Shown piece by piece: positions 26,232-64,000 of a stretch of 64,000 nt of DNA (its first letter is position 1; every line of letters begins with the position of its first letter). The translations under genes and the position numbers were made by a program. Source of the DNA: an uncultured Acidobacteriota bacterium (lineage in GTDB: Bacteria; Acidobacteriota; Vicinamibacteria; Fen-336); the NCBI GenBank assembly GCA_963720545.1, contig OY970399.1:128001-192000 (forward strand), read 5' to 3'. Below the pieces are notes generated by a model. The model was not told the DNA's origin and did no database searches. It was given only the letters and a program-made list of their open reading frames with translations.

Positions 26232-27560
26232 TTGAGCACACATCTGCAGTCATTCCTGGACAAAGTCGCGGCCGGCAAGGCGCGCGTCGGCACCCTCGGG
26301 CTCGGCTACGTCGGCCTGCCGCTCTCGGTCGAGTTCGCATCCGCGGGCGTCTCGGTCACCGGCTTCGACCTCTCCGAGCGCAAGGTCGCCGCGGTGAAGA
26401 AGGGCGAGAGCTACATCAAGGACGTGCCGTCGTCGCGGCTCGCGCCGCTGGTGGCGAGCGGCATGCTCACCGCGTCCTCCGACTTCGACGGCCTGCGCGA
26501 CTGCGACGCGGTGATCATCTGCGTGCCGACGCCGCTGTCGAAGACCAAGGACCCCGACCTGCAGATGGTGGTGGACGCCTCGAAGGCGATCGCCGAGCGG
26601 CTGCGTCCCGGGCAGCTCGTGGTCCTCGAGAGCACCACGTATCCGGGCACCACCGAGGAGCTGATCCTGCCGCTGCTGAAAGCCAAGGGCGGCACGGTCG
26701 GCGACACCTTCTTCCTCGCGTTCTCGCCCGAGCGCGTCGATCCGGGGAACCCGAAGTTTCACACCCGCAACACGCCGAAGATCATCGGCGGCACCACCCC
26801 AAACTGCACGCAGGCGGCGAGCGCCCTCTACGGCAAGGCCATCGACCGCGTCATCCCGGTGTCGTCCACGCAGACGGCGGAGATGGTGAAGCTGCTCGAG
26901 AACACCTTCCGCAGCGTCAACATCGGCCTCGTCAACGAGGTCGCGCTCATGTGCGACCGGCTGCACGTGGACGTCTGGGAAGTGATCGACGCGGCGGCCA
27001 GCAAGCCCTTCGGCTTCATGCCGTTCTATCCGGGGCCCGGCCTCGGCGGCCACTGCATTCCGATCGACCCGCTTTACTTGTCGTGGAAGCTGAAGACGCT
27101 CAACTACCGCGCGCGCTTCATCGAACTGGCGGGCGAGATCAACTCGGGGATGCCCGAGTACGTCTGCAACAAGGCGGCCGACCTGCTCAACACCCGCGAG
27201 CGCTCGGTGAAGGGCAGCAAGATCCTGGTCGTGGGCGTCGCCTACAAGAAGGACATCGAGGACGTGCGCGAGTCGCCGGCCCTCGACATCATCCGCCTGC
27301 TGTCGGAGAAGGGCGCCAAGGTCAGCTATCACGATCCGTTCGTGCCGCATCTCGACTTCGAGGCCGAGGGCTCGCACCTGGTGCACGAGCCGCTGAGCTC
27401 GATCGACCCGGTCGCGGGCGCGAAGGCCGCCGACCTCGTGGTGATCGTCACCGAGCACACCGCGGTTGACACCAGGAAGATCGTTGAAGCGGCGAGCCTC
27501 GTCCTCGACACCAGGAACGCCACCAAGGGCATCGTTTCCGACAAGATCCTGAAAATCTGA
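26232..27560 (+). CDS. UDP-N-acetylhexosamine dehydrogenase (WbpA/WecC/TviB family)
   Basis: GLGYVGLP, CVPTP, ESTTYPGTT, FSPER, KLLENTFR, GGHCIP; TTG 26232 follows a GAGG SD. Confidence 0.9.
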   Translation: MSTHLQSFLDKVAAGKARVGTLGLGYVGLPLSVEFASAGVSVTGFDLSERKVAAVKKGESYIKDVPSSRLAPLVASGMLTASSDFDGLRDCDAVIICVPTPLSKTKDPDLQMVVDASKAIAERLRPGQLVVLESTTYPGTTEELILPLLKAKGGTVGDTFFLAFSPERVDPGNPKFHTRNTPKIIGGTTPNCTQAASALYGKAIDRVIPVSSTQTAEMVKLLENTFRSVNIGLVNEVALMCDRLHVDVWEVIDAAASKPFGFMPFYPGPGLGGHCIPIDPLYLSWKLKTLNYRARFIELAGEINSGMPEYVCNKAADLLNTRERSVKGSKILVVGVAYKKDIEDVRESPALDIIRLLSEKGAKVSYHDPFVPHLDFEAEGSHLVHEPLSSIDPVAGAKAADLVVIVTEHTAVDTRKIVEAASLVLDTRNATKGIVSDKILKI

Positions 27561-28102
27561 ACCTACCCAACGCGTTAACGCTCCTTCGCATCTTCCTGGT
27601 CCCGGTCCTGGTGGTGGTGCTGCTCACCCGGACCGAGAAGGGCCTGTTCCTCGGCGTCTTCGTGTTCGGCGTCGGCGTCCTCACCGACTACCTCGACGGC
27701 TACTTCGCCCGCCGCCGCAACCAGATCACCAAGCTCGGCATCCTGCTCGACCCGCTCGCCGACAAGCTGCTGACCGCGGCGGCGTTCCTTTCGCTGCTGG
27801 AGCGCGGCGCCATCCCGGCGTGGGTGGTCCTCATCATCCTCGGCCGCGAACTCGCGGTGACCGCGCTGCGCAACGTCGCCGCCAGCCGCGGCGTCCTCAT
27901 CCCGTCGTCGCCGCTCGGCAAGTGGAAGATGGTGACGCAGGTCGTCGCTATTTTCATCCTGCTCCTCGGCGAGCGCTTCCTGCAGCTGGAACCCCTCGCA
28001 CGCCCACTGATGTGGATCGTGGTGGTCATGACGTTGCTCTCAGGCTTCGACTACTTCCGCCGCTTCTGGCAAGCGGCCTTCGGCACCACCCGCTCGGCTT
28101 AG
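27557..28102 (+). CDS. pgsA: CDP-diacylglycerol--glycerol-3-phosphate 3-phosphatidyltransferase
   Basis: (M)NLPNALTLLRI N-terminus and D..DG..AR....T..G..LDPLADK CDP-alcohol motif; the full-length protein needs a CTG start at 27557. Confidence 0.9.
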   Translation: MNLPNALTLLRIFLVPVLVVVLLTRTEKGLFLGVFVFGVGVLTDYLDGYFARRRNQITKLGILLDPLADKLLTAAAFLSLLERGAIPAWVVLIILGRELAVTALRNVAASRGVLIPSSPLGKWKMVTQVVAIFILLLGERFLQLEPLARPLMWIVVVMTLLSGFDYFRRFWQAAFGTTRSA

Positions 28103-62391: not shown

Positions 62392-63797
62392 TCCCGCTGC
62401 AGCTCTACAACACGCTCTCCGGCAAGCTCGAGACGTTCACTCCTAACGACCCAAAGAACGTTGGCATGTACGTCTGCGGCCTCACCGTCTACAGCCGCGG
62501 CCACGTCGGCAACTACCGCACCTTCGTCGCCACCGACCTCCTGCGCCGCACGCTGGCGCTCTTCGGCTACGGCGTGAAGCAGGTCATGAACATCACCGAC
62601 GTGGACGACCGCATCATCGACCTCGCGGCAAAGGCCGGCCAGAACATCGACGAGTTCACGCGCGCACACATCGCGAGCTTCGAGGAGGACCGCACGACGC
62701 TGCGCATCGAGCCCGCCGAGGTCGTGCCGCGCGCCACTGCCCACATCCCCGAGATGATCGCGATCATCGAGCGGCTGATCGAGCGCGGGCACACCTACGC
62801 GGCCGATGGCAGCGTCTACTTCAAGATCGGGACCTTTCCCGGGTACGGCCGGCTGTCTCGCCTCGACGTCTCCGGCATCAAGGCTGGCGCCCGTGTGGAC
62901 ACCGACAAGTACGACAAGGAAGACGCACGCGACTTCGTGCTGTGGAAGCTGAAGGCCGACGAGCCCGCCTGGGCCCAGTGGGACGCGGCGTTCGGCAAGG
63001 GCCGCCCGGGGTGGCACATCGAGTGCTCAGCGATGTCTATGAAGTACCTGGGCGACACTTTCGACATCCACTGCGGCGGCATCGACCTGATCTTCCCGCA
63101 CCACGAGAACGAGATCGCGCAGAGCGAGGCCTCAACCGGCAAGCCGTTCGTACGCCACTGGATGCACTCGCACCACCTGCTCATCGAAGGCGACACGATG
63201 TCGAAGAGCAAGGGGAACGTCTACAGCATCCCCGAGCTCGTCGCGAAGGGTCACAAACCGGACGCAATCCGGTATCTCCTGCTCTCGAGCCACTACCGCA
63301 GCACGCTCAACTTCACCTTCGAAGGCCTCGGCCAGGCGCAGACGGCCCTCGACCGCATCCACGGCTTCGCGGTGCGCCTTGGCGAAGTGGAGAAGGAAGG
63401 GCCGCCCGCAGCAGCAGTCGTAGCCGCGGTAACGAAAGCAGAAAGCGCGTTCAACGCAGCACTCGCCGACGACCTGAACACCCCAAGGGCACTGGCGGCG
63501 GTCCACGACTTCGTCGGCGAAGGCAACGCCGTCCTCGCAACCGGCGAGGCAACGACGGAAGGCGCCAAAGCCCTCAGGCAAGAACTCGCAAGAATGAACA
63601 GGATCTTCGCGGTGTTCTTCCCGACAGAAGAGGATGCGCTCTCAGCTGACGAACAGGCGCTCTTCGACGAGCGCCAGGAAGCCCGCAAGAACCGCGACTT
63701 CCAGAAAGCAGACGCCACCCGCAATGCGCTCGAGCAGATGGGCATCATCGTCGAGGACTCGGCCAAGGGCACGCGCTGGCGCCGGAGGCGGCCATAG
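62388..63797 (+). CDS. cysS: Cysteine--tRNA ligase
   Basis: LYNTL, YVCG, HVGN, NITDVDD, DFVLWK, GRPGWHIECSAM, FPHHENE, MSKS; GTG 62388 overlaps the upstream stop. Confidence 0.97.
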   Translation: MIPLQLYNTLSGKLETFTPNDPKNVGMYVCGLTVYSRGHVGNYRTFVATDLLRRTLALFGYGVKQVMNITDVDDRIIDLAAKAGQNIDEFTRAHIASFEEDRTTLRIEPAEVVPRATAHIPEMIAIIERLIERGHTYAADGSVYFKIGTFPGYGRLSRLDVSGIKAGARVDTDKYDKEDARDFVLWKLKADEPAWAQWDAAFGKGRPGWHIECSAMSMKYLGDTFDIHCGGIDLIFPHHENEIAQSEASTGKPFVRHWMHSHHLLIEGDTMSKSKGNVYSIPELVAKGHKPDAIRYLLLSSHYRSTLNFTFEGLGQAQTALDRIHGFAVRLGEVEKEGPPAAAVVAAVTKAESAFNAALADDLNTPRALAAVHDFVGEGNAVLATGEATTEGAKALRQELARMNRIFAVFFPTEEDALSADEQALFDERQEARKNRDFQKADATRNALEQMGIIVEDSAKGTRWRRRRP

Positions 63798-64000
63798 ACC
63801 CGCGCGGCACGAGCGCCGAAGAGCTCGCGTGCCGCCACCTCGAAGCCAAGGGTTTCAAGATCGTGGCGAGAAACGTGGCCTCGCGCTTCGCCGAGATCGA
63901 CATCATCGCGAGGGACGGCGAGTACCTGGTGTTCGTCGAGGTGAAGGGAAGAAAAGACGACAAGCACGGCTCCGGATTCGAAGCCGTCACCCACCGCAAG
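63794..64000 (+). CDS. yraN: YraN-family (UPF0102) PD-(D/E)xK endonuclease-like protein, truncated by the window edge
   Basis: Manual translation G..AE..A..HL...GFKIVARN..EIDIIARDGEYLVFVEVK; not in the ORF track; apparent ATA start. Confidence 0.85.
   Translation, partial: MDPRGTSAEELACRHLEAKGFKIVARNVASRFAEIDIIARDGEYLVFVEVKGRKDDKHGSGFEAVTHRK

What the first reader, a model, noticed from the sequence alone, without database searches (positions are those of the whole stretch)
27557..64000. Repeated use of near-cognate start codons (CTG x3, ATA x1), mostly at stop/start overlaps
Seen in four genes: pgsA (CTGA 27557), GT4 (CTGA 32144, AGGAGG 7 nt upstream), S46 peptidase (CTG 44565, GGGAGG 5 nt upstream) and yraN (ATAG 63794, GGAGG 5 nt upstream). 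The codon sits where the family N-terminus or signal peptide should begin, and three mimic the ATGA/GTGA/TTGA coupling used throughout the window. TTG starts are also common (dnaK, gatA, prmA, birA, ribF). Known: CUG/AUA initiation is very rare in model bacteria and is policed by IF3. Inference: relaxed start-codon discrimination or coupling-driven reinitiation is a routine expression mechanism here, which standard gene callers would miss. This is my best candidate for an undescribed system in the window.
Basis: partly seen in the sequence, partly recalled or inferred. Interest (0 to 1): 0.75.

Follow-up and report, generated by a model that had tools for sequence, protein, structure and literature searches.

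The report
CTG as a weak fourth start
In this soil acidobacterium and its relatives, several ordinary genes have CTG where related species have a normal start codon, often on or just after the previous gene's stop codon, so roughly 1-2% of genes likely begin at this weak codon and standard gene finders would cut their proteins short.

Summary
All four codons are in the sequence. pgsA and GT4 CTG are well supported: relatives have GTG/TTG in the same column (28 of 29; 17 of 24). S46 CTG is likely, but an in-frame ATG lies 9 codons downstream. yraN needs a near-cognate start, but CTG 63776 rivals ATA 63794. Genome-wide, about 30 CTGA-overlap starts are estimated (0.9% of 3,481 genes), about 1-2% CTG overall. 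The signal is higher in this Vicinamibacteria order (35 of 493 junctions) than in two GC-matched controls (1 of 159), and ruvC begins at CTG in 8 of 8 species of one genus. It is a minor route, not a routine one: selection still prefers canonical starts, infC keeps its ATA start, and initiator tRNA, ksgA and anti-SD are normal. One lead: IF3 has Ser/Ala at E. coli Tyr70 in 30 of 30 order members, against aromatic/Leu in 20 of 20 other Acidobacteriota. No expression data exist. The scan noted CTGA starts before in other genomes. New variant of a known kind.

The parts
27557..27559 (+). CTG, inferred start of pgsA-like CDP-alcohol phosphatidyltransferase (gene 27557-28102); overlaps TGA 27558-27560 of the upstream UDP-glucose/GDP-mannose dehydrogenase-family gene
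   Evidence: Same column in 29 relatives: GTG 17, TTG 11, CTG 1, ATG 0; Pfam match from residue 1; next canonical codon 18 codons downstream
32131..32136 (+). AGGAGG, SD-like motif 7 nt before the GT4 CTG (inside the upstream GT2 gene)
   Evidence: Sequence; complementary to the 16S tail CCUCCU
32144..32146 (+). CTG, inferred start of the GT4 glycosyltransferase (gene 32144-33343); overlaps TGA 32145-32147 of the GT2 gene
   Evidence: 24 relatives: TTG 14 and GTG 3 in the same column, 6 with a canonical codon 2-5 codons upstream, 1 frameshifted; family by Pfam
44563..44565 (-). CTG, likely start of the S46 peptidase (gene 42475-44565); not at a stop overlap; gives a 25-residue signal-like leader with a basic residue
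   Evidence: 9 of 9 readable relatives start 0-5 codons from this column, 3 exactly on it; Pfam S46 begins at residue 25; rivals ATG 44538 and TTG 44640
44571..44576 (-). GGGAGG, SD-like motif 5 nt before the S46 CTG
   Evidence: Sequence
63776..63778 (+). CTG inside the cysS Arg-Trp codons, in the yraN frame; rival start of yraN (22-nt overlap)
   Evidence: In 29 distinct in-frame loci this position is GTG/ATG in 21; in 8 of 8 out-of-frame loci it is CTG
63784..63788 (+). GGAGG, SD-like motif 5 nt before ATA 63794
   Evidence: Sequence; same layout as the infC start of most relatives, GGAGG-N6-ATA
63794..63796 (+). ATA overlapping the cysS stop TAG (63795-63797); candidate start of yraN (UPF0102)
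   Evidence: No canonical codon in frame before 63863; no other of 41 distinct loci shows in-frame ATAG among the 37 parsed; bases agree with contig 8 of run X1
58908..58910 (+). TTG start of ribF (context: weak canonical starts are common)
   Evidence: Orthologs ATG 7, GTG 1 of 8 in the same column

Best explanation
CTG stands in the start-codon column of several ordinary genes in this lineage and likely serves as a weak fourth NUG start, read by the normal initiator tRNA through positions 2-3. Shown: CTG exchanges with ATG/GTG/TTG at the first codon of orthologs, and is over-represented at -4 stop overlaps. Inferred: such starts arise by point change or by collapse of the spacer onto the upstream TGA (pgsA), persist in genes that need little protein (pgsA and GT4 families already use TTG/GTG), and are mostly fed by ribosomes re-initiating after the upstream stop, while isolated cases (S46) lean on an SD motif. 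IF3 policing likely still works, so yield would be low and selection restores a canonical codon where it can.
For: Ortholog columns: pgsA GTG 17/TTG 11/CTG 1 of 29; GT4 TTG 14/GTG 3 of 24; PDE-II gene C1:1471937 CTG vs ATG 22, GTG 1; ruvC CTG in 8 of 8 species of genus g27 and in G019, vs ATG 11, GTG 5, other 1 of 25, 3-10 nt after a stop. In 5 relatives the gene before pgsA ends AAG ATC TGA, so the C of CTGA is the Ile codon's third base. Junction test 21 of 300 vs 13 of 588, estimate about 32 genes. A start-site model free to choose any codon ranks CTG fourth (4.3%; best decoy 1.6%); the signal is in genes next to an upstream stop (7.2%) and absent in isolated genes. Pooled order 35 of 493 vs controls 1 of 159, p=6e-4. 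infC ATA in 29 of 30; initiator tRNA with three G-C pairs; ksgA present; anti-SD and 790 loop ordinary. Compensation at cysS-yraN. CUG gives 1-2% of AUG in E. coli (10.1101/063800, passages); CUG pairs at positions 2-3 only, with a mutant initiator tRNA (PMC11497404, passages).
Against: No transcript, ribosome or peptide data. Homology-picked candidates are not significantly closer to upstream stops than starts in general (8 of 11 vs a 50% baseline, p=0.11), and a TGA stop forces an NTG in the -4 frame, which favours CTG in the model (the Paracoccus control also gave CTG 2.6% among adjacent genes). G019 and G025 are not significant singly (p=0.25, 0.38). Kin are not independent and there are only two control replicons, one of them a secondary replicon. 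IF3 opposes SD-less re-initiation in E. coli (PMC2268962, passages), and pgsA has no SD. The IF3 Tyr70 change is unexplained by this reading.
Confidence: 0.6

Rival explanations
1. Start-codon discrimination is relaxed in this order because IF3 has Ser/Ala in place of the conserved aromatic residue (E. coli Tyr70) at the hinge between N-domain and linker, so first-position variants (UUG, CUG) initiate better than in model bacteria, with or without coupling.
For: NS 19, NA 8, DS 3 in 30 of 30 order loci; Tyr 15, Phe 4, Leu 1 in 20 of 20 other Acidobacteriota, 3 of them from other orders of the same class; Ser/Ala in 117 of 120 nearest homologs. The residue follows the Asp used as the linker pivot and precedes the 16S-binding stretch 63-70 in Thermus numbering (PMC5037330, passages; alignment). 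TTG starts are about 10% in G000 and 12% in G025 vs 3-4% in controls. Isolated CTG starts exist (S46, PDE-II).
Against: One lineage, one event: a correlation only. R25, Q33, R66, Y75, R99, D106, K110, R131 and E134 are kept. infC keeps ATA. No CTG excess among 1,352 isolated genes. No paper on Tyr70 was found. CTG use in sister orders was not measured.
Confidence: 0.2
2. CTG starts at this rate are a general, under-annotated feature of GC-rich bacteria and nothing is special about this lineage.
For: CTG is among annotated starts in model genomes and proven by peptide for Deinococcus rpsL (PMC2830850, passages). Earlier scan notes report CTGA starts in four other lineages (unchecked AI notes).
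Against: Paracoccus (68% GC) 1 of 92 and Nonomuraea (71% GC) 0 of 67 vs 35 of 493.
Confidence: 0.13
3. The codons are assembly errors or decaying starts, and the proteins begin at nearby canonical codons or are not made.
For: CTG is private to G000 at GT4, S46 and PDE-II; S46 has ATG +9 and PDE-II has TTG -9; three of the four sites lack a read check.
Against: The pgsA C is the conserved third base of the upstream Ile codon; ruvC CTG is fixed in 8 species; starting pgsA at 27611 would drop the conserved NLPNALTLLRI segment; yraN bases agree with an independent assembly of run X1; the genome-wide excess is specific to CTG.
Confidence: 0.07

Closest known systems
Near-cognate CUG starts: Deinococcus rpsL and Deide_03051, E. 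coli plasmid repA (PMC2830850, passages)
   Same: CTG in the column where the family begins; missed by annotation; can be conserved in a clade (ruvC here).
   Different: Those are a few fixed genes; here CTG is scattered over tens of genes, swaps with TTG/GTG between species, and often sits on the upstream stop. No peptide evidence here.
infC AUU/AUA start with IF3 autoregulation; S. aureus ccpN, cvfC1, citZ (PMC13009471, PMC2830850, passages)
   Same: infC here starts at ATA (29 of 30), overlapping the upstream stop as ATAG in G000; the yraN ATA copies that layout.
   Different: The four window genes are not initiation factors and their near-cognate codon is not conserved across the order, so no feedback loop is implied.
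Translational coupling by termination-reinitiation at -4 (NTGA) overlaps (PMC10666635, PMC2268962, passages)
   Same: -4 overlaps are common here (550 of 2,188 confident starts) and CTG joins ATG/GTG/TTG at them.
   Different: The overlap paper's main text has no mention of CTG/CUG (0 hits); coupling was not measured here.
Relaxed-fidelity IF3 mutants (Y75; R25/Q33/R66) (PMC5037330, PMC9723500, passages)
   Same: A change in the IF3 N-domain/linker region in a lineage with more non-AUG starts.
   Different: The residues shown to matter are all kept; the changed one (Tyr70) has no functional data that I found.

Membership tests
Near-cognate (CUG/AUA) bacterial start codons | Codon lies at the family N-terminus with no usable in-frame ATG/GTG/TTG | tested here: met
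   Met for pgsA, GT4 and yraN; S46 has ATG +9 and TTG -25 codons
Near-cognate (CUG/AUA) bacterial start codons | Exchanges with ATG/GTG/TTG in the same column of orthologs | tested here: met
   pgsA 28 of 29, GT4 17 of 24, S46 3 of 9 exact; yraN CTG 63776 yes, ATA 63794 ambiguous
Near-cognate (CUG/AUA) bacterial start codons | Bases are real, not assembly errors | tested here: inconclusive
   yraN agrees with one run; pgsA C supported by conserved upstream codon; GT4 and S46 not checked in reads
Near-cognate (CUG/AUA) bacterial start codons | Initiation shown by Ribo-RET or N-terminal peptide | not testable with these tools
   No RNA holder listed; uncultured organism
infC-type autoregulated non-canonical start | Non-canonical codon fixed across the clade in a gene that controls start selection | tested here: not met
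   Not met for the four window genes; met for infC itself, ATA 29 of 30
Termination-reinitiation coupling | Start overlaps or closely follows the upstream stop on the same strand | tested here: met
   pgsA, GT4 at -4; yraN at -4 or -22; S46 has no upstream same-strand gene
Termination-reinitiation coupling | Downstream expression depends on upstream translation | not testable with these tools
   Needs reporters
Relaxed start-codon discrimination (IF3/16S/tRNA variants) | Loss of known fidelity determinants | tested here: not met
   IF3 R25, Q33, R66, Y75, R99, D106, K110, R131, E134 kept; three G-C pairs in initiator tRNA; ksgA present; 790 loop and anti-SD ordinary
Relaxed start-codon discrimination (IF3/16S/tRNA variants) | A lineage-specific change in the machinery that tracks with the trait | tested here: inconclusive
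   IF3 Tyr70 to Ser/Ala 30 of 30 vs 0 of 20; trait not measured in sister orders; the 16S h45 variant is phylum-wide (17 of 21)
Relaxed start-codon discrimination (IF3/16S/tRNA variants) | Near-cognate starts raised in all contexts, including AUH codons | tested here: not met
   No CTG excess in 1,352 isolated genes; ATA/ATC/ATT at decoy level

The most novel reading that the evidence does not exclude
An entire order of soil Acidobacteriota carries a naturally relaxed IF3 (Tyr70 to Ser/Ala at the N-domain/linker hinge) that loosens first-position checking of the start codon while keeping AUA repression of infC, making CUG a working fourth start codon for 1-3% of genes, especially at coupled junctions.
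Probability: 0.18. Interest if true: 0.72.

Novelty: new variant of a known kind. Interest (0 to 1): 0.42.

Why it matters
If right, tens of proteins per genome in an abundant soil lineage are annotated too short (lost signal peptides, membrane helices and catalytic N-termini), and CUG should be modelled as a fourth, context-dependent start codon. The IF3 Tyr70 variant gives a single-residue, directly testable handle on how start-codon stringency evolves in nature. If the IF3 link fails, this remains an annotation-level refinement of known near-cognate initiation.

Tried and rejected
SD enrichment before CTG in gene-onset zones: none (47 of 2,514, 1.9%; CTC 38 of 2,258, 1.7%). Raw -4 frame share at CTGA (140 of 300) as a count of CTG starts: rejected, inflated by nearby canonical codons. 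First pairwise ortholog scan: too noisy, internal Val codons scored as starts and pgsA was missed; replaced, whose orphan lists (23 of 421, 27 of 429, 14 of 188, 11 of 188) are mostly alignment over-extension and were curated by eye. Start model with a distance prior (CTG 8.3%): rejected, it also lifts GTA/CTA/ATA. ATG 63634 as yraN start: wrong frame. 16S h45 loop GGAGAA as the cause: phylum-wide, 17 of 21 genomes with that end of 16S, unpublished G063 left out. Missing ksgA or altered initiator tRNA: not the case. Junction test on other Acidobacteriota (cysS loci, 1.05 Mb, 54% GC): only 21 CTGA junctions, 2 orphans, uninformative. ZIP transporter C1:2116597: relatives' starts scatter, so only suggestive. 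Runs X5 and X7 cover the yraN junction but their differences were not all listed; X2 does not cover it. No RNA holder listed. Paper searches that found no description of CTGA-overlap starts, of CUG starts in Acidobacteria or of IF3 Tyr70: (open-access library only). The CTG percentage in Hecht et al. Table 1 and supplements could not be seen (image; journal version not held).
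Full report
Setting. The window is C1:128001-192000 of a single-contig 4.09-Mb genome, 68.7% GC. The nearest named relatives of its cysS are Acidobacteriota, with Vicinamibacteria named among the best hits. I compared it with 40 genomes of the same family or order, 1.29 Mb of G019 and 0.8 Mb of G025, and with two GC-matched control records, Paracoccus denitrificans (0.70 Mb of 1.73) and Nonomuraea gerenzanensis (0.65 Mb of 11.85). 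Genes were called with my own dicodon model (3,481 in G000), so all genome-wide counts are approximate.

The four sites. All codons and SD spacings are as reported. pgsA: in 29 relatives the same column holds GTG 17, TTG 11, CTG 1, ATG 0. Five relatives end the upstream gene AAG ATC TGA followed by a spacer; in G000 the spacer is gone and the Ile codon's C plus the stop's TG form the start column. The next canonical codon is 18 codons on and would remove the conserved NLPNALTLLRI segment. GT4: of 24 relatives, 14 have TTG and 3 GTG in the column, 6 start 2-5 codons upstream, 1 is frameshifted. These two are strong. S46: 9 of 9 readable relatives (10 loci, one at a contig edge) start 0-5 codons from the CTG column, projected from the mature N-terminus; CTG gives a 25-residue leader with an Arg, whereas ATG 44538 gives 16 residues with no basic residue. 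I put CTG at about 70%. yraN: no canonical codon exists in frame before 63863, but CTG 63776 competes with ATA 63794. Of 41 distinct loci 37 could be parsed; where yraN is out of frame with the cysS Arg-Trp codons the Arg codon is CGC in 8 of 8; where it is in frame and the stop overlap offers no canonical codon, that position is GTG/ATG in 13 of 17 (p=5e-4, kin not independent). So the family start is often there, favouring CTG 63776, while the GGAGG-N5-ATAG layout copies infC and favours ATA. Four of 29 in-frame loci, G000 among them, have only near-cognate options. One short-read contig (run X1, 63191-64000, 2 differences elsewhere) agrees with the junction.

How common. Junction test: among adjacent same-strand pairs whose upstream gene ends CTGA, the next gene is in the -4 frame with no other canonical start in -21..+45 in 21 of 300 cases, against 13 of 588 for TAG/TAA stops (p=7e-4) and 9 in the control frame (p=0.04); scaling by the 45% detection rate of canonical overlaps gives about 32 genes, 0.9%. 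G019 gives 7 of 139 and G025 7 of 54 (neither significant alone); controls give 1 of 92 and 0 of 67; pooled p=6e-4. A start-site model free to pick any codon ranks CTG fourth (4.3%, best decoy 1.6%); started with near-zero priors it still makes 40 confident CTG calls of 2,188 (1.8%; next decoy 12), 23 of them at -4. The signal is absent in 1,352 isolated genes, and part of it is a model artefact, since Paracoccus gives 1.7%. Against G019, 5 clear CTG starts were seen among 421 testable genes, 2 more in other scans and about 4 uncertain ones (curated by eye). Multi-genome checks: the PDE-II gene at C1:1471937 has CTG against ATG 22 and GTG 1, with a rival TTG 9 codons upstream; ruvC has CTG in 8 of 8 species of genus g27 and in G019, a few bases after a stop, not on it. 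My estimate is 1-2% of genes. Four cases among 57 window genes is above that rate (P=0.02 at 1.8%), so the window is somewhat rich or the estimate low.

Machinery. infC starts at ATA in 29 of 30 loci, mostly behind GGAGG (GGGGG in G000), and overlaps the upstream stop as ATAG in G000. By established knowledge that start serves IF3 autoregulation (PMC2830850, PMC13009471, passages), so its retention suggests discrimination still operates. Initiator tRNA has its three G-C pairs, ksgA is present, anti-SD, 790 loop and the 1338/1339 region are ordinary, and the h45 variant is phylum-wide (the E. coli base is recalled). IF3 keeps R25, Q33, R66, Y75 and the C-domain residues I checked (the relevance of R99, D106, K110, R131, E134 is recalled). 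One change stands out: E. coli Tyr70 is Ser or Ala in 30 of 30 order loci and 117 of 120 nearest homologs, but Tyr, Phe or Leu in 20 of 20 other Acidobacteriota, chosen by me from 45. It lies at the N-domain/linker pivot next to the 16S-binding stretch (PMC5037330, passages). No functional data were found. IF1 and IF2 were not examined.

Mechanism. Best reading (0.6): CUG is the weakest member of the NUG series, used where low yield is tolerable and usually where a terminating ribosome is already in place; it is produced by ordinary mutation and often replaced. Shown: the column exchange, the junction excess, the compensation at yraN. Inferred: initiation itself, coupling, low yield. Against: proximity to stops among homology-picked cases is not significant (8 of 11, p=0.11), and IF3 opposes SD-less re-initiation in E. 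coli (PMC2268962, passages). Rivals: relaxed IF3 (0.2, not exclusive), general GC-rich trait (0.13), artefact (0.07).

Comparison and novelty. CUG and AUA starts are known and proven in single genes (Deinococcus rpsL, repA, infC, S. aureus ccpN), E. coli initiates at CUG at 1-2% of AUG (10.1101/063800, passages), and -4 coupling is well described (PMC10666635, passages; no CTG/CUG in its main text). My searches found no paper on CTGA-overlap starts or on this lineage; most subscription papers are not covered and bioRxiv supplements are closed. This scan has noted CTGA starts in at least five other genomes (unchecked). The finding is real and lineage-wide but is a quantitative variant of a known phenomenon, with one testable new lead in IF3.

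Noticed in passing
G000:C1:463863 (-), L186; L178-L207: infC starts at ATA in 29 of 30 loci; in G000 the ATA overlaps the upstream gene's TAG stop (ATAG). L193 has GTG/ATC instead.
   Followed up: yes
L186 IF3, E. coli positions 69-70: Order-specific N/D-S/A-G-K in place of D-Y-G-K at the N-domain/linker hinge (30 of 30 vs 0 of 20).
   Followed up: partly
L420-L427 and L157 (ruvC): ruvC begins at CTG in all 8 species of genus g27 examined and independently in G019, 3-10 nt after the upstream stop.
   Followed up: yes
window 27557 and 32144 orthologs: pgsA and GT4 never use ATG in the start column (0 of 29; 0 of 17), suggesting long-term selection for weak starts in these envelope genes.
   Followed up: partly
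G000 vs G019 orthologs: G000 has TTG where G019 has ATG in 10 columns and the reverse was not seen, a shift against the GC bias.
   Followed up: no
G000:C1 1473333 (+), 4013134 (-), 1039703 (-), 2116597 (+), 554386 (+), 3725955 (+), about 970130 (+, ATAG): Further candidate near-cognate starts outside the window; the first three align with a canonical start in G019, the rest are uncertain.
   Followed up: partly
L031, 16S 3' end: h45 loop region reads GUAGGAGAACC; shared by 17 of 21 Acidobacteriota with that region assembled.
   Followed up: yes
whole genome: SD use is low: about a third of confident starts have even a 4-base SD motif, and a quarter sit at -4 overlaps.
   Followed up: partly
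G000:C1:862138-862236: A selenocysteine tRNA is present.
   Followed up: no
L113 (G012) and L017 (G008): Apparent frameshifts near the GT4 start and the end of the gene before pgsA, likely assembly errors in those genomes.
   Followed up: no
L280: A contig labelled Hyphomicrobium carries a Vicinamibacteria-like cysS (64% identity) and cysS-yraN junction; likely mis-binned.
   Followed up: no
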